Source of the DNA: Chloroflexota bacterium
Lineage (GTDB): Bacteria > Chloroflexota > Dehalococcoidia > JACVQG01 > JAHKAY01
Assembly (NCBI GenBank): GCA_018825785.1
Contig: JAHKAY010000029.1
Span: forward strand, 4,143-68,142
Direction of reading: 5' to 3'
DNA length: 64,000 nt
Made by a program: the position numbers and the translations under genes. The stretch's first letter is position 1. Every line of letters begins with the position of its first letter. Positions 8,769 to 29,366 of this stretch are shown piece by piece. Below the pieces are notes generated by a model. It saw only the letters and a program-made list of their open reading frames with translations, made no database searches and was not told where the DNA came from.

Positions 8769-8774
8769 CCTAAT

Positions 8775-8867
8775 CCCCGTGAAAGATTCGCTTCGCCCTT
8801 TTTCATGGGGCCCCCTAAGACAAGAAAGCAGACCCGGGGTCCCCTGAAAAACGGAGTTTTTCAGGGG
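8775..8867 (+). repeat. two-hairpin intergenic element, copy 1 (hairpin 1 at 8775-8810, hairpin 2 at 8841-8867)
   Basis: Near-identical to 17521-17614. Hairpin 2 is cccctgaaaaac-gga-gtttttcagggg, and its 3' arm carries the Shine-Dalgarno of yhhQ (ATG at 8876). Confidence 0.6.
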
Positions 8868-8875
8868 GTTCGCGT

Positions 8876-9490
8876 ATGACGGCGGCCATCCTCCTCAGCG
8901 GCATATACATTGCCTGCGAGCTGATAGCCAATGTCACCGCCTCAAAGCCTGTAGCGGTGGGTGGTATTGTGGTGCCTGCCGCCGTCTTTATCTATGCCCT
9001 GACCTTCACCCTGGTGGACCTCATCAACGACCGGCTGGGCAAAGACGGGGCCAGGAAGGTGGTCTATACCGCTTTTGCCGCCAATATCCTCTTGGCGGGC
9101 TATATCCAGTTTTCCGTAAACCTACCCCCCGCCCCCTTTTACCAAGGGCAGGAGGCCTTCCGGGCGGTCCTGGGGTCCACCCCCCGGATTGTGGCGGCCA
9201 GCCTGACCGCCTATATCATCTCCAGCCTCATTGACATAGAGGTCTTTGCCTGGTGGCGGGAGAGGGTGGGGAGGTACCGCTGGGCCCGGGTCCTGGCCTC
9301 CAACGCCGTTTCCACCCTGGTGGACAGCATCGTTTTCATCACCGCTGCCTTCTGGGGGGTCTTCCCCGTCCTGCCCCTTATTCGGGGGCAGTATATCGTG
9401 AAGATGGCGGTGACGGGGGTGAGCCTGCCCCTTATCTACCTGGTGAGGGCGGCCCGCCCTGCCCCGGCCCGGGAGGCGGGATGGAAGTAG
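8876..9490 (+). CDS. yhhQ: queuosine precursor transporter (YhhQ/COG1738, VUT family)
   Basis: 204-aa polytopic membrane protein with the YhhQ-family pattern (VVYTAFAANILLAGY ... STLVDSIVFI). Confidence 0.75.
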   Translation: MTAAILLSGIYIACELIANVTASKPVAVGGIVVPAAVFIYALTFTLVDLINDRLGKDGARKVVYTAFAANILLAGYIQFSVNLPPAPFYQGQEAFRAVLGSTPRIVAASLTAYIISSLIDIEVFAWWRERVGRYRWARVLASNAVSTLVDSIVFITAAFWGVFPVLPLIRGQYIVKMAVTGVSLPLIYLVRAARPAPAREAGWK

Positions 9491-17514: not shown

Positions 17515-17520
17515 TAGATA

Positions 17521-17614
17521 CCCCATGAAGAATTCGCTTCGCTCTTTTGCATGGAGGCCCCGAAGATTGTGGCGGCCAAACTGGGGCCCCCTGAAAAACA
17601 GCGTTTTTCAGGGG
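17521..17614 (+). repeat. two-hairpin intergenic element, copy 2 (hairpin 1 at 17521-17555, hairpin 2 at 17587-17614)
   Basis: Same architecture as 8775-8867 with identical 12-bp stem arms cccctgaaaaac/gtttttcagggg. The 3' arm overlaps the Shine-Dalgarno of ymdB (ATG at 17624). Confidence 0.6.
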
Positions 17615-17623
17615 TAGGACTTC

Positions 17624-18400
17624 ATGCGCCTCTTGATGGTGGGGGATGTGGTGGGCCGCCCCGGCCGGAGGGCACTCGGGCTGGTCTTGCCCCGGCTCCG
17701 GCAGGAATACGGGCTGGACCTGGTTATCGTCAATGGGGAAAATGTGGCCGGGGGGCAGGGACTCACCCCGGAGACGGCAGAGGAGCTCTTCGCCCTGGGG
17801 GTGGATGTCATAACCTCCGGCAATCATATCTGGGAACACAAGGAGATATATCCCTACCTGGGCGGCCAGCGGCCTGTCCTCAGGCCCCTCAACTATCCCC
17901 CCCAGGCCCCCGGGAGGGGCTATGTCATCCTGGAAAAGGCTATGGTGGTCAACCTGGTGGGCAGGACCTTTATGGGCAACTTTGACTGCCCCTTCCGGGG
18001 AATGGACCAGCTCCTGGCCCAGGAGAGAGACCACCCGCCAGTGGTTATCGTGGACTTCCATGCTGAGGCCACCTCGGAGAAGAATGCCATGGGCTGGTAT
18101 CTGGACGGGAGGGTGAGCGCCGTCCTCGGCACCCACACCCATGTGGGCACCATTGACTGGAGGGTCCTGCCCCGGGGCACGGCCTATGTTACCGATATTG
18201 GCATGACCGGTCCGATGGACTCGGTCATCGGGGTTGAGGTGGAAGCGGTCCTCCAGCGCTTTCTTACCCTTCTCCCCCATCGCCTCCCCGTGGGCAAGGG
18301 CCGGGTGACATTCAATGCCGTTCTAGTGGATATAGATGAGGCCTCGGGCAGGGCCCGAAAGATAGACCGAATCATCCGGGAGGTGGGGGACGAGGGCTGA
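17624..18400 (+). CDS. ymdB: YmdB-like 2',3'-cyclic-nucleotide phosphodiesterase (calcineurin-like metallophosphoesterase, TIGR00282)
   Basis: MRLLMVGDVVGRPGRRAL, GENVAGGQG and GNHIWE motifs. Forms the conserved rny-ymdB pair. Confidence 0.9.
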   Translation: MRLLMVGDVVGRPGRRALGLVLPRLRQEYGLDLVIVNGENVAGGQGLTPETAEELFALGVDVITSGNHIWEHKEIYPYLGGQRPVLRPLNYPPQAPGRGYVILEKAMVVNLVGRTFMGNFDCPFRGMDQLLAQERDHPPVVIVDFHAEATSEKNAMGWYLDGRVSAVLGTHTHVGTIDWRVLPRGTAYVTDIGMTGPMDSVIGVEVEAVLQRFLTLLPHRLPVGKGRVTFNAVLVDIDEASGRARKIDRIIREVGDEG

Positions 18401-27859: not shown

Positions 27860-28314
27860 CCTTTGGCCAGCTTCTCTACCAGCTTGAGGACCTTTTCCTT
27901 AATGATATCCCGGGCCTCCCGGTAAAGGGGCAGATATTTATCATCGTTGGGGCTGAAGGGGTCGGGGATGCCCCAGTGCTCTATCTTCTTCCCAGGCACC
28001 ACCGGACACGCCTCGGCCTCAGTGCACACTGCTACTATGAGGGAAGCCTTGACCAGCATGTCCCCGGTCAGGGGCTTGGGCCGGCCCTGGTGTTCAATCC
28101 CTATCTCCTTCAGGGCTTTCAGGGCCAGGGGGTGGACTTCCTTCCCTGGCTGGGTCCCCGCGGAGACAGCCCTCCAGCCCGGCGGGGCGTAGTGGTTGAA
28201 CAGGGCCTCGGCCATCTGGCTGCGGCAGGTGTTGCCCACACAGATAAAGAGGACTAGTGCTTGCTTGCGGAAATCAGCGAAACGAGATTCTTCGCTATGC
28301 TCAGAATGACACAT
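27856..28314 (-). CDS. low-molecular-weight phosphotyrosine phosphatase family protein (ArsC-like, CX5R motif CVGNTCRS)
   Basis: [20 protein letters not shown]-loop and a downstream Cys pair ([11 protein letters not shown]), as in thioredoxin-coupled ArsC. The N-terminal extension is unusually long. Confidence 0.7.
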
Positions 28315-28385
28315 CTATGTTGTCACCCTGAGCGAAGCGAAGGGTCTCTGCTCACTTTTGTGACGGGAATTATTGTAACTAAGCA

Positions 28386-29366
28386 CTAGCCCTCTTTCAG
28401 CCACCGGGCGGCCTCCTTGGCGTGGTAGGTGATGATGAAGTCCGTCCCCGCCCTCTTGATGGCGGTGAGGACCTCCAGGGCGGCCCTCCTCTCCTCCAGC
28501 CAGCCATTTTGGGCGGCGGCCTTCACCATGGCGTATTCCCCGCTGACATTGTAGGCGGCCAGGGGATACGGGAAGTTGTCCCTGGCCTGGGCGATGACAT
28601 CCAGGTAGGCGAGAGCGGGCTTGACCAGGATGATATCGGCCCCCTCCATCACATCCTGCTCAATCTCCCTCATGGCCTCCCGGACATTGGCGGGGTCCAT
28701 CTGGTAGCCCCGGCGGTGGCCGAACTTGGGGGCGGACTCCACCGCCTCGCGGAAGGGCTCAAAGAAGGCGGAGGCGTATTTGGCGGAATAGGCCATGATG
28801 GGGATATGGGAGAAGCCCTGCTCATCCAGCCTCTCCCGGATAGAGGCCACCTGCCCGTCCATCATGGCGGAGGGGGCCACGATATCAGCCCTGGCCTCGG
28901 CCTGGGAGAGGGCAGCGCGGGCCAGGAGCTCCAGAGTGCGATCGTTGTCCACCTCCCCCCCTGTCACCACCCCGCAGTGGCCGTGGGTAGTATATTCACA
29001 GAGGCAGACATCGGTGATGACCACAAGTTCCGGCACAGTCCCCTTTATCTCCCGTATGGCCTCCTGGACGATGCCCCGGGGGTCACAGGCCTCTGAGCCC
29101 TCCTCGTCCTTCCGCGAAGGGATGCCGAAGAGTAGGACAGCCGGGATGCCCAGCTTGTGGGCCTCCTCCGCCTCCTTAGCGGCCATATCAGGGGAGAGGC
29201 GGCAGATACCGGGCATGGAGGTAATTTCCTGGCGCTGGGCCCGGCCGGGGACCACAAAGAGGGGATAGACCAGGTCCTGGACGGAGAGCCTGGTCTCCCG
29301 GACCAGACCCCGCAGGCCCTGAGTGCGGCGCAGCCTCCGCAGCCTCAGCTGAGGAAAAGTGCTCAT
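28386..29366 (-). CDS. hemB: porphobilinogen synthase (delta-aminolevulinate dehydratase)
   Basis: 326 aa with the HemB active-site lysines and metal region (DVCLCEYTTHGHCG). Confidence 0.95.
   Translation of the reverse strand: MSTFPQLRLRRLRRTQGLRGLVRETRLSVQDLVYPLFVVPGRAQRQEITSMPGICRLSPDMAAKEAEEAHKLGIPAVLLFGIPSRKDEEGSEACDPRGIVQEAIREIKGTVPELVVITDVCLCEYTTHGHCGVVTGGEVDNDRTLELLARAALSQAEARADIVAPSAMMDGQVASIRERLDEQGFSHIPIMAYSAKYASAFFEPFREAVESAPKFGHRRGYQMDPANVREAMREIEQDVMEGADIILVKPALAYLDVIAQARDNFPYPLAAYNVSGEYAMVKAAAQNGWLEERRAALEVLTAIKRAGTDFIITYHAKEAARWLKEG

What the first reader, a model, noticed from the sequence alone, without database searches (positions are those of the whole stretch)
8775..8867. 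Conserved two-hairpin intergenic element whose second hairpin sequesters the Shine-Dalgarno of the downstream gene (copy 1: corA-yhhQ; copy 2: rny-ymdB)
Two intergenic regions (8775-8867 and 17521-17614) share the same ~95-nt architecture. Hairpin 1 is ccccRtgaaRRattcgcttcgcYctttt-catgg; hairpin 2 is a 12-bp stem with a 3-nt loop and identical arms cccctgaaaaac/gtttttcagggg. In both copies the 3' arm of hairpin 2 (tttttcaGGGG) carries the only plausible SD for the next gene, with ATG 7-10 nt downstream. Both also sit right after the stop of a + strand gene with no U-tract. Identical arms with differing loops imply selection on structure. Candidate roles: an SD-sequestering translational switch or thermosensor, a U-tract-less terminator or processing site (notably right after RNase Y), or a REP/MITE-like repeat.
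Basis: seen in the sequence. Interest (0 to 1): 0.62.

Follow-up and report, generated by a model that had tools for sequence, protein, structure and literature searches.

The report
Small mobile hairpin repeat in Dehalococcoidia
The two look-alike 95-base intergenic hairpin elements are copies of a small non-coding "jumping" DNA repeat (a MITE) that is scattered through Dehalococcoidia genomes, not a conserved switch that hides the ribosome-binding site of the next gene.

Summary
The two elements are real: about 95 nt each, 83% identical, with an identical 12-bp/3-nt-loop hairpin 2 that is absent from shuffles. They are not a locus-specific regulator.

The same three-hairpin unit (hairpin 1, a middle hairpin, hairpin 2) recurs in about 25 independent loci. 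Every one that carries a taxonomic label comes from a Dehalococcoidia/Chloroflexota MAG. Copies lie next to unrelated genes, in both orientations, and between co-directional, convergent and divergent genes.

One orthologous empty/filled pair shows a clean insertion. The element ends are TACCCC...GGGGTA and the 8-9 bp target (Y)TAATTTAG is duplicated. That target contains the neighbour's TAG stop, which explains "right after the stop codon".

The rny-ymdB copy is absent in 70-75% relatives, where the gap is 9-15 nt. It is internally deleted or reduced to one hairpin in 91-96% relatives.

Hairpin 2 arms are invariant or decay without compensation. G:U and C:A mismatches are balanced, so no strand is favoured. 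Loops, and hairpin 1 as a whole, flip between close relatives, which is DNA-level behaviour.

Where genes follow other copies they have their own AGGAGG outside the element. ymdB keeps its ancestral AGGA outside the stem.

Verdict: a previously undescribed MITE family, an ordinary kind of object. Any effect on yhhQ translation is incidental and untested.

The parts
8771..8868 (+). MITE copy 1 (corA-yhhQ spacer). Its left end TAAT-CCCC is slightly off the family consensus TA-CCCC, and its right end lacks the consensus TA.
   Evidence: nhmmer E = 7.5e-25; CM 83.7 bits. An orthologous copy is present in the 97% relative L123, with hairpin 1 and the hairpin-2 loop flipped.
8775..8810 (+). Copy 1 hairpin 1: arms 8775-8786 and 8799-8810, 12-nt loop TTCGCTTCGCCC.
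   Evidence: -15.6 kcal/mol, z = -3.9.
8811..8839 (+). Copy 1 middle hairpin: CCCC(C)...GGGG base with a variable interior.
   Evidence: a middle hairpin is predicted in the window copy 1 shown there and in 13 of the 14 other loci listed.
8841..8867 (+). Copy 1 hairpin 2: 12-bp perfect stem, loop GGA. Its 3' arm plus G8868 is the only SD-like purine run before the yhhQ ATG at 8876.
   Evidence: -16.9 kcal/mol.
17519..17616 (+). MITE copy 2 (rny-ymdB spacer), with consensus ends TA-CCCC...GGGG-TA.
   Evidence: E = 2e-26; 88.2 bits. It is absent from this site in L100 and L101, and deleted or decayed in L099, L102 and L103.
17521..17556 (+). Copy 2 hairpin 1, degenerate (2 mismatches plus 1 wobble), loop TTCGCTTCGCTC.
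   Evidence: -6.4 kcal/mol, z = -0.5.
17557..17587 (+). Copy 2 middle hairpin (GGCCCC...GGGGCC).
   Evidence: the identical L098 copy, -14.1 kcal/mol.
17588..17614 (+). Copy 2 hairpin 2: 12-bp perfect stem, loop AGC.
17616..17619 (+). AGGA, the likely native SD of ymdB. It lies outside hairpin 2, 4 nt before the ATG at 17624.
   Evidence: It is unpaired in the fold of 17583-17648. AGGA is kept in L102/L103 (TAGGACTCG) and in the element-free relative L100 (CCAGGACCCCC-ATG).

Best explanation
Both elements are copies of a non-autonomous transposable element, a miniature inverted-repeat transposable element (MITE). It is about 95-100 nt long and specific to Dehalococcoidia/Chloroflexota.

Anatomy:
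- The ends are inverted repeats: TACCCC(A)TGAAAAA... and ...TTTTTCAGGGGTA.
- The body is three palindromic modules. Hairpin 1 has a 12-nt loop, TTCGCTTCGCTC. The middle hairpin has a CCCC/GGGG base. Hairpin 2 is a perfect 12-bp stem, most often with a GAA or TTC loop.

Shown by the data:
- The element inserts with an 8-9 bp target-site duplication into AT-rich targets that contain TAG/TAA. Such targets sit at gene ends, which is why copies abut stop codons.
- It is dispersed next to unrelated genes in either orientation.
- It is present or absent at orthologous sites.
- Once inserted it decays through deletions between its own repeated arms, through point mutations, and through inversion of hairpins and loops.
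- It forms mosaics: solo hairpins, tandem duplication of hairpin 2, and other hairpin modules nested inside hairpin 1.

Inferred, not shown:
- A DDE-type transposase supplied in trans moves it. No partner IS was found.
- In the window both copies are probably transcribed inside the corA-yhhQ and rny-ymdB units and fold as stable RNA hairpins.
- For yhhQ, hairpin 2 may incidentally occlude the SD-like GGGGG. For ymdB, the ancestral AGGA stays accessible.
- Any regulatory effect is a by-product of insertion, not the reason the sequence is conserved.
For: Family and distribution:
- The hairpin-2 pattern hit 97 loci in 185,579 species genomes.
- 34 of those loci are from Chloroflexota MAGs, and every full three-hairpin copy among them lies in one of these. 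The window itself is from a Dehalococcoidia bacterium.
- An independent metagenome scan keyed on hairpin 1 gave 19 more loci.

Mobility:
- Empty sites L126 and L127 read gggcTTAATTTAG|TGATTTAGCC.
- Filled sites L116 and L128 read gggcTTAATTTAG|TTACCCC...GGGGTA|CTAATTTAG|TATTTAGCC.
- Flanking direct repeats scoring at least 6 occur in 5 of 13 copies, against 7 of 156 mismatched flank pairs. Repeats scoring at least 8 occur in 3 of 13 against 0 of 156.
- The rny-ymdB spacer is 109 nt in the window and L098, 70 nt in L102/L103 (96% aa, internal deletion, broken hairpin 2) and 42 nt in L099 (91%, a single hairpin made of the two outer arms). It is 15 nt in L100 (75%) and 9 nt in L101 (70%), which have no element.

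No fixed relation to genes:
- Among gene pairs that run the same way, 6-8 copies are sense and 3 antisense. There are also 4 divergent and 2-3 convergent contexts. 11 of 21 copies lie within 7 nt of a gene's stop codon, at either end of the element.

No RNA-strand signature:
- G:U cells number 42 and C:A cells 32 overall, 17 versus 15 in hairpin 1 and 3 versus 3 in hairpin 2.
- Hairpin 2 has 5 pairs that never vary. Its only double change comes from a decayed copy.

DNA-level dynamics:
- Window copy 1 against its ortholog L123: hairpin 1 matches 20 of 36 positions directly and 33 of 36 when flipped. The hairpin-2 loop is GGA versus TCC.
- Hairpin 1 is also flipped in L091, L111/L118 and L121.
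- Hairpin 2 is tandemly duplicated in L104 compared with L120. Nested modules occur in L108, L114, L116 and L117.

No match to any Rfam family.
Against: - No autonomous IS with matching ends was found in the roughly 0.87 Mb of sequence held, so the transposase family is unknown.
- The window copies themselves no longer show a recognisable target duplication, so their insertion is inferred from the family and from relatives.
- The palindromes keep more double-sided changes than column shuffles give: 9 pairs against a mean of 4.8, reached in 5 of 500 shuffles. The middle hairpin keeps its stem with different sequences. Something therefore maintains palindromy, either a need of transposition, arm-to-arm correction, or a structural role.
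- Among co-directional gene pairs there is a mild, non-significant excess of sense orientation.
- In one MAG (DYGU01) a subfamily carries hairpin 2 followed by TTTT, which looks like a terminator. Some members may have been put to use.
Confidence: 0.85

Rival explanations
1. SD-sequestering translational switch or RNA thermometer. Hairpin 2 pairs the SD of the downstream gene and opens under some signal.
For: - In copy 1 the only purine-rich stretch before the yhhQ ATG is CAGGGGG. Most of it is the 3' arm of a -16.9 kcal/mol hairpin, and the ATG is 8 nt after the stem.
- The same arrangement is kept in the 97% relative L123.
Against: - The position relative to start codons is not conserved across the family.
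- Genes downstream of other copies carry their own AGGAGG outside the element.
- ymdB keeps an accessible AGGA outside the stem.
- The rny-ymdB copy is deleted or decayed in relatives with 91-96% identical protein, and absent in more distant ones.
- There is no G:U over C:A bias and no covariation in hairpin 2.
- A 12-bp perfect stem is much more stable than known thermometers, which rely on weak, mismatched stems (own knowledge).
Confidence: 0.06
2. REP/BIME-type element moved by a REP-associated tyrosine transposase (RAYT, IS200/IS605-like) acting on single-stranded DNA hairpins, rather than a MITE moved by a DDE transposase.
For: - The element is built from palindromic units that also occur solo (L099, L105, L106) and in mosaics.
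- The four arms are variants of one 12-mer in alternating orientation.
- Hairpin flips and arm homogeneity point to hairpin extrusion in vivo.
- The hairpin apices carry C-GAA-G or GCGAAGC, a very stable DNA mini-hairpin motif (own knowledge; sequences).
- Copies cluster just after stop codons, as REPs do.
Against: - A clean 8-9 bp target-site duplication and terminal inverted repeats are seen. IS200/IS605 and RAYT chemistry makes neither (own knowledge).
- There is no conserved GTAG head.
- No Y1 transposase was looked for or seen next to copies.
- The third loop base is not held to A in diverged copies, which carry GAG, GGG or AAA on the GAA strand.
Confidence: 0.05
3. Exapted RNA element at gene ends. 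It would act as a terminator without a U-tract, a barrier to 3' exonucleases, or an RNase (for example RNase Y or RNase III) processing site that uncouples the upstream and downstream cistrons.
For: - Half of the copies lie within 7 nt of a stop codon.
- The hairpins are very stable.
- The DYGU01 subfamily has hairpin 2 followed by a T-run.
- REP and Correia elements are known to do such things (own knowledge).
Against: - Stop-codon proximity is explained by the target sequence.
- Copies also sit between divergent genes and in antisense orientation.
- There is no U-tract in the window copies and no terminator call.
- Copies decay in close relatives.
Confidence: 0.1
4. Operator for a dimeric DNA-binding protein. 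The 27-bp perfect palindrome would be the binding site of a regulator that controls yhhQ and ymdB.
For: A perfect 12+3+12 palindrome lies immediately upstream of two start codons.
Against: - The palindrome always travels with about 70 nt of additional conserved sequence and with target duplications.
- The neighbouring genes are unrelated across loci.
- It often lies downstream of convergent genes.
- The spacer varies and flips.
Confidence: 0.02

Closest known systems
Bacterial MITEs, e.g. Correia elements (CREE/NEMIS) of Neisseria, ERIC/IRU of enterobacteria, RUP of Streptococcus pneumoniae, Nezha of cyanobacteria
   Same: - About 100 nt long with no coding capacity.
- Terminal inverted repeats and a target-site duplication.
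- Tens of dispersed intergenic copies, with presence/absence between relatives.
- Folds into long hairpins when co-transcribed with neighbouring genes.
- Can land next to start or stop codons.
   Different: - The target duplication is 8-9 bp and AT-rich with TAG, whereas Correia elements duplicate TA (own knowledge).
- The sequence is unrelated to those families and has no Rfam match.
- The host range is Dehalococcoidia/Chloroflexota.
- The body is three separate G/C-clamped, A/T-cored palindromes rather than one long hairpin.
- The partner IS is unknown.
- No promoter, terminator or RNase site has been demonstrated.
REP / BIME / REPIN elements with RAYT transposases (E. coli, Pseudomonas)
   Same: - Short palindromic units that occur alone or combined into mosaics.
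- Located just downstream of stop codons.
- Expected to form stable mRNA hairpins. In E. coli such hairpins stabilise upstream mRNA or reduce expression when within about 15 nt of the stop (own knowledge).
   Different: - This element has terminal inverted repeats and an 8-9 bp target duplication.
- It has no GTAG head.
- RAYT linkage was not examined.
- It also occurs between divergent genes.
SD-sequestering RNA thermometers and translational riboregulators (ROSE, fourU)
   Same: In copy 1 an SD-like purine run lies in the 3' arm of a hairpin 8 nt before the ATG.
   Different: - The placement is not conserved in the family.
- The stem is perfect and far too stable.
- There is no strand-specific conservation.
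- The element decays in orthologs.
Minute hairpin-loop inversions in non-coding chloroplast DNA (own knowledge: Kelchner and Wendel 1996)
   Same: Loops, and here a whole hairpin, bounded by inverted repeats flip between close relatives while the arms stay identical.
   Different: This is a bacterial mobile element. The comparison concerns only the DNA-level mechanism, not function.

Membership tests
MITE (non-autonomous element of a DDE-type transposon) | Small size (under about 300 bp) with no coding capacity | tested here: met
   Typical copies are 92-98 nt, and 116-131 nt where another module is nested. The element is made entirely of hairpins.
MITE (non-autonomous element of a DDE-type transposon) | Terminal inverted repeats | tested here: met
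   TACCCC(A)TGAAAAA at the left end and TTTTTCAGGGGTA at the right end. The outer arms pair with each other in the predicted fold of copy 1.
MITE (non-autonomous element of a DDE-type transposon) | Target-site duplication of fixed length | tested here: met
   An 8-9 bp duplication is seen at the empty/filled site. Direct repeats of 6-10 bp flank L044, L109, L112, L115 and L116, exceeding mismatched-flank controls. The duplication is no longer visible at the two window copies.
MITE (non-autonomous element of a DDE-type transposon) | Multiple dispersed copies, with presence/absence at orthologous sites | tested here: met
   There are 2 copies in the window. One MAG (DYGU01) has 10 loci and others have 2-3. 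Extra unselected copies appear in L013, L029, L091, L108 and L114. Empty sites are L100, L101, L126 and L127.
MITE (non-autonomous element of a DDE-type transposon) | A full-length IS with the same ends that encodes the transposase | tested here: inconclusive
   No pair of matching ends 0.7-2.5 kb apart was found in the loci held.
REP/BIME (RAYT-mobilised) | No target-site duplication, a conserved GTAG head, and a RAYT gene flanked by REPs | tested here: not met
   A target duplication is present. The flank consensus is (Y)TAG-T-A before CCCC, not GTAG at the hairpin foot. RAYT linkage was not testable with the sequence held.
SD-sequestering riboregulator / RNA thermometer | Fixed position relative to the start codon, with the SD inside the stem, across members | tested here: not met
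   Only the window copies and their orthologs lie within 10 nt of an ATG. The SD of ymdB is outside the stem.
SD-sequestering riboregulator / RNA thermometer | Strand-specific structural conservation (covariation, G:U tolerated over C:A) and retention in orthologs | tested here: not met
   G:U 42 against C:A 32. Hairpin 2 is invariant or broken, never compensated. Orthologs L099, L102 and L103 have decayed.
Intrinsic (Rho-independent) terminator | G+C-rich hairpin followed directly by a U-tract | tested here: not met
   The tails are GUUCGCGU and UAGGACUU. The scan makes no terminator call at hairpin 1 or hairpin 2; its only hit inside copy 1 is a 5-pair minus-strand stem at 8842-8830 in the middle-hairpin region. 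The DYGU01 subfamily does have GGGG-TTTT tails.
Any Rfam 15 RNA family | Covariance-model match | tested here: not met
   There are no gathering-score hits in the window. At E up to 10 on both regions there are only chance eukaryotic hits.

The most novel reading that the evidence does not exclude
The family, together with the more widespread GTCATTSY-GAGCGNAGCGAA-GSAATC hairpins that share its hairpin-1 loop, may be recognised and moved or maintained as single-stranded DNA. The recognised feature would be the very stable C-GAA-G / GCGAAGC mini-hairpin apices. Hairpin extrusion in vivo would then drive the loop flips and keep the arms identical.

In addition, individual copies may have been co-opted. 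Window copy 1, which is kept in the 97% relative, could be a translational attenuator of the queuosine-precursor transporter. The U-tract-bearing DYGU01 subfamily could act as portable terminators.
Probability: 0.12. Interest if true: 0.5.

Novelty: new member of a known kind. Interest (0 to 1): 0.27.

Why it matters
For annotation, this repeat will recur in Dehalococcoidia and other Chloroflexota MAGs. It should be masked or labelled as a mobile repeat, not called as a riboswitch, an sRNA or a spurious ORF.

It gives a convenant marker of recent insertion and deletion in a poorly cultured, streamlined lineage, where small mobile elements have apparently not been catalogued. My literature searches found nothing on it.

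It also explains why stable hairpins sit exactly at stop/start junctions in these operons. The target preference for AT-rich, TAG-containing 8-mers puts them there.

The hairpin and loop inversions between 97%-identical relatives are a clean natural record of palindrome dynamics in bacterial DNA. If copy 1 does dampen yhhQ translation, that would be an example of a MITE rewiring expression. This is untested.

Tried and rejected
- Rfam at gathering score on the whole window, and at E up to 10 on both regions: nothing relevant.
- Promoter and terminator scans around both copies: no promoter-like site in either copy and no terminator-like call at hairpin 1 or 2; the only hit inside an element is a 5-pair minus-strand stem at 8842-8830.
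- Viral contig scans with a hairpin-2 pattern and a hairpin-1 pattern: 0 hits each.
- Literature searches gave no description of this element. The terms were Dehalococcoides with REP, Dehalococcoid with MITE, Dehalococcoidia with palindromic, intergenic and repeat, and the literal arm and loop sequences.
- Search for an autonomous parent, as pairs of matching ends at IS-like spacing in all held loci: none convincing.
- A third copy in the window: none by nhmmer or by the covariance model with filters off. The GCGAAGCGAA match at 28332 belongs to a different element.
- The many hairpin-2 pattern hits outside Chloroflexota were rejected as relatives. They include Christensenellales-type MAGs, Flavobacteriales, Nitrospinaceae, Omnitrophota and Desulfogranum. 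They share only the short stem, have other loop lengths and flanks, and most carry T-tails typical of terminators.
- The idea that the hairpin-1 apex is constrained as a GNA triloop: diverged copies carry GAG, GGG or AAA, so this is not supported as a constraint.
- The corA-yhhQ site could not be used as an empty site. Relatives at 85-89% identity have different upstream genes.

Full report
**1. The observation**

Both regions are as described.
- They align over about 95 nt at 83% identity.
- The hairpin-2 pattern occurs exactly twice in 64 kb and never in 100 shuffles, even with three mismatches allowed.
- The hairpin-1 core also occurs exactly twice.
- Hairpin 2 is a perfect 12-bp stem with a 3-nt loop, -16.9 kcal/mol in both copies. 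Hairpin 1 is strong in copy 1 (-15.6 kcal/mol) but degenerate in copy 2 (-6.4 kcal/mol, z = -0.5).
- The flanking genes are CorA and a Vut_1/YhhQ-type transporter, and RNase Y and YmdB.
- The stop codons lie 6 nt upstream of the first CCCC. The ATGs lie 8 and 9 nt downstream of hairpin 2.
- There is no U-tract and no terminator-like or promoter-like call at hairpin 1 or 2.

- A third, middle hairpin with a CCCC...GGGG base lies between the two described.
- The four arms are variants of one 12-mer in alternating orientation, so the outermost arms are terminal inverted repeats. They pair with each other in the minimum-energy fold of copy 1.

One observational claim is wrong. For ymdB the 3' arm is not the only plausible SD. 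AGGA at 17616-17619 lies outside the stem and is unpaired in the fold.

**2. It is a dispersed family, not a two-locus feature**

A scan of one genome per species (185,579 species) with CCCTGAAAAAC-N3-6-GTTTTTCAGGG returned 97 loci.
- 34 of them come from about 20 Chloroflexota MAGs, mostly Dehalococcoidia.
- Only these carry the whole unit: hairpin 1 with the loop TTCGCTTCGCTC, the middle hairpin, and hairpin 2.
- The remaining hits share only the short stem. They differ in loop length and flanks, and most have T-tails. Examples are terminators downstream of tRNA genes in chicken-gut Clostridia MAGs. I treat these as unrelated look-alikes.

The window itself is from a Dehalococcoidia bacterium. 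Its YmdB is 96% identical to a protein labelled "MAG TPA: Dehalococcoidia bacterium".

A second, independent sample was keyed on hairpin 1 only, by a metagenome scan that returned 19 loci. It shows that the element is modular.
- Full copies with intact hairpin 2: L104/L120, L109, L110, L112, L115 and L117.
- A copy with a 1-nt deletion in hairpin 2: L116.
- Copies with uncompensated mismatches in hairpin 2: L119 and L122.
- Hairpin 1 alone or with other modules: L105, L106 and L107/L113.
- Other G/C-clamped hairpins nested inside hairpin 1, such as CCCCACAAAATC-TTC-GATTTTGTGGGG: L108/L114, L116 and L117.
- A tandem duplication of hairpin 2: L104 compared with L120.

A covariance model built from 20 copies finds only the two known copies in the window with filters off. 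It also finds extra copies that were not selected for, in L013, L029, L091, L108 and L114. None occurs in viral contigs.

**3. It is mobile**

*Empty and filled alleles.* Downstream of an ImmA/IrrE-type gene, two contigs are empty and two are filled.
- Empty (L126, L127): gggcTTAATTTAG|TGATTTAGCC
- Filled (L116, L128): gggcTTAATTTAG|TTACCCC...GGGGTA|CTAATTTAG|TATTTAGCC

The element ends are therefore TACCCC...GGGGTA. The 8-9 bp target (Y)TAATTTAG is duplicated, and the gene's TAG stop codon lies inside that target.

*Flanking repeats in other copies.* Direct repeats of 6-10 bp flank L044, L109, L112, L115 and L116.
- Score at least 6: 5 of 13 copies, against 7 of 156 mismatched left/right flank pairs.
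- Score at least 8: 3 of 13 copies, against 0 of 156.

*The rny-ymdB site across relatives*.

| Locus | YmdB identity to window | Spacer | State |
|---|---|---|---|
| window, L098 | 100% | 109 nt | full element |
| L102, L103 | 96% | 70 nt | 3' arm of hairpin 1 and most of the middle deleted; hairpin 2 broken (CCCCCGAAAAAAGGCTATTTCAGGGG) |
| L099 | 91% | 42 nt | single hairpin made of the left arm of hairpin 1 and the right arm of hairpin 2 |
| L100 | 75% | 15 nt | no element |
| L101 | 70% | 9 nt | no element |

The AGGA before the ymdB ATG is present in L100, which lacks the element. It therefore predates the insertion.

*The target explains the position.* The target preference for AT-rich 8-mers containing TAG or TAA explains why 11 of 21 copies lie within 7 nt of a stop codon. 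This holds at the hairpin-1 end for sense genes and at the hairpin-2 end for antisense genes.

**4. No consistent RNA-level role**

*Gene context varies*.
- Between co-directional genes: 6-8 copies are sense and 3 antisense.
- Between divergent genes: 4 copies.
- Between convergent genes: 2-3 copies.

*Downstream genes have their own SD.* Where a gene follows hairpin 2 in other genomes, its SD (AGGAGG) lies 10-14 nt beyond the element, as in L010, L050 and L054.

*Pair counts on 20 copies*.
- 90% of cells form a standard pair.
- There is a modest excess of double-sided changes: 9 pairs against a shuffled mean of 4.8, reached in 5 of 500 shuffles.
- This excess sits almost entirely in hairpin 1 and the middle hairpin.
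- Hairpin 2 has five invariant pairs. Its one double change comes from the decayed L119.

*No strand is favoured.* Transition mismatches are balanced between strands: G:U 42 against C:A 32 overall, 17 against 15 in hairpin 1 and 3 against 3 in hairpin 2. An RNA read from one strand should tolerate G:U but not C:A.

There is no Rfam match.

**5. DNA-level behaviour**

Window copy 1 and its ortholog L123 (97% identical YhhQ) differ by inversions.
- Hairpin 1 is inverted as a whole: 20 of 36 positions match directly and 33 of 36 when flipped.
- The hairpin-2 loop is inverted: GGA against TCC.

Across the family the commonest hairpin-2 loops are GAA and TTC, in the same element orientation. Hairpin 1 is also flipped in L091, L111/L118 and L121.

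Such flips, together with deletions between the repeated arms (L099, L102), are what palindromes do through intrastrand pairing and template switching. The same process would keep the arms identical without any selection on RNA structure. This is an inference.

**6. What it most likely is and does**

It is a MITE.

Shown: small size, terminal inverted repeats, an 8-9 bp target duplication, dispersal, presence/absence at orthologous sites, and decay.

Inferred:
- It is mobilised by a DDE transposase acting in trans. No partner was found.
- It is co-transcribed within the two operons.
- Hairpin 2 may partly occlude the SD-like GGGGG of yhhQ, an arrangement kept in L123.
- Little effect is expected on ymdB.

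Rivals, with my confidence:
- REP/RAYT-type ssDNA element, 0.05. It is contradicted by the target duplication and the inverted-repeat ends.
- Exapted RNA barrier, terminator or processing site, 0.10.
- SD-sequestering switch as the conserved function, 0.06.
- Protein operator, 0.02.

**7. Comparison with known elements, and novelty**

It works like Correia, ERIC or RUP-type bacterial MITEs, and it resembles REP/BIME elements in its modular palindromes and its position next to stop codons. It passes the MITE membership tests apart from the unidentified parent IS, and it fails the REP, riboregulator and terminator tests.

I found no description of it in the literature. It is a new member of a known kind, useful for annotation and as a strain marker, but not surprising to a specialist.

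**8. Caveats**
- All related sequences are MAG or metagenome contigs.
- Gene contexts rest on long-ORF heuristics.
- Copy number per genome is only roughly bounded: 2 per 64 kb in the window, and 10 exact-hairpin loci in one MAG.
- The window copies have lost recognisable target duplications.
- The filled and empty alleles at the ImmA site do not track protein identity. L128 (82%) is filled and L126 (94%) is empty. This implies repeated gain, precise loss or recombination.

Noticed in passing
window 28247-28397: A second, unrelated MITE-like element lies in an AT-richer spacer between two minus-strand ORFs. It has about 17-bp inverted ends (AAAGAGGNCTAGTGCTT). Inside are two inverted hairpins, GTCATTCTGAGCATAGCGAAGAATCTC (reverse strand) and GTCACCCTGAGCGAAGCGAAGGGTCTC. 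Their loop, GAGCGNAGCGAA, is the flipped loop of hairpin 1 of the finding, but the stems differ. Its CTAG end overlaps the stop codon of the ORF 28386-29366 (minus strand).
   Followed up: partly
L011, L034, L055, L108, L112, L115 (positions): A short hairpin module, GTCATT(G/C)(C/T)-GAGCGNAGCGA-AG(C/A)AAT(C/G), recurs in many Dehalococcoidia loci independently of the finding's element. It has the same 11-12-nt loop with covarying stems. The loop contains GCGAAGC, known as a very stable DNA mini-hairpin (own knowledge). What recognises this loop is unknown.
   Followed up: partly
L123:226-318 versus window 8775-8867; also L091, L111/L118, L121: Hairpin 1 as a whole and the loop of hairpin 2 are inverted between orthologous copies in genomes whose flanking protein is 97% identical. 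Hairpin 1 is flipped relative to the rest of the element in about 4 of 25 independent loci.
   Followed up: yes
L011, L029, L055, L063, L064, L080, L085 (MAG DYGU01, labelled D. mccartyi BE2012_46_32): This is a subfamily of about 100 nt with a different left half (GATTGCTGAAAAAGTCCTTATG...CAAAGTAAACCTATGC...CTCCAAATTCGGGGCC). It has the same hairpin 2, here followed by TTTT(T/A). That looks like an intrinsic terminator or the 3' end of a multicopy small RNA.
   Followed up: partly
L104:2365-2498 versus L120:6207-6310: This is the same locus in two metagenomes. L104 carries a tandem duplication of hairpin 2 (...CAGGGGTGCCCCCTGAAAAACTTCGTTTTTCAGGGG).
   Followed up: no
L108, L114, L116, L117, L128 (hairpin 1 region): Other G/C-clamped, A/T-cored hairpins are nested inside the 3' arm of hairpin 1. 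Examples are CCCCACAAAATC-TTC-GATTTTGTGGGG and CCCAGAAAAAT-TGAA-GATTTTTCTGGG. This suggests a wider set of related palindromic modules.
   Followed up: no
L004, L007, L012, L019, L021, L033, L038-L040, L045, L052, L060, L061, L066, L095 and others: In gut Clostridia MAGs (Borkfalkia, Gallimonas, Coproplasma and similar), tRNA genes are followed by a conserved two-hairpin tail. It reads GTGGATAAAAATGCTGTCCAC, then CCCTGAAAAAC-GATGA-GTTTTTCAGGG-TTTTT. It has the same stem sequence as hairpin 2 but a 5-nt loop and a U-tract, so it is probably a terminator and a chance look-alike.
   Followed up: no
L006, L016, L058 (Desulfogranum japonicum); L003, L014, L065, L088 (Flavobacteriales MAG); L002, L046, L075 (Nitrospinaceae MAG); L018, L028, L073 (Omnitrophota MAG): Several unrelated genomes each hold 3-4 copies of their own repeat built around the same CCCTGAAAAAC/GTTTTTCAGGG stem, with different loops and flanks.
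   Followed up: no
L116/L128 (filled) versus L126/L127 (empty): The filled and empty alleles do not follow the identity of the adjacent ImmA/IrrE protein. The 82% relative is filled and the 94% relative is empty. This suggests independent gain, precise excision or recombination.
   Followed up: no
L099:4421-5777: In the 91% relative, a DNA methylase and an HNH-domain gene lie about 1 kb downstream of ymdB. The window and L098/L102 instead have a Peptidase_S49 gene on the opposite strand there. This is a small synteny break next to the element-bearing spacer.
   Followed up: no
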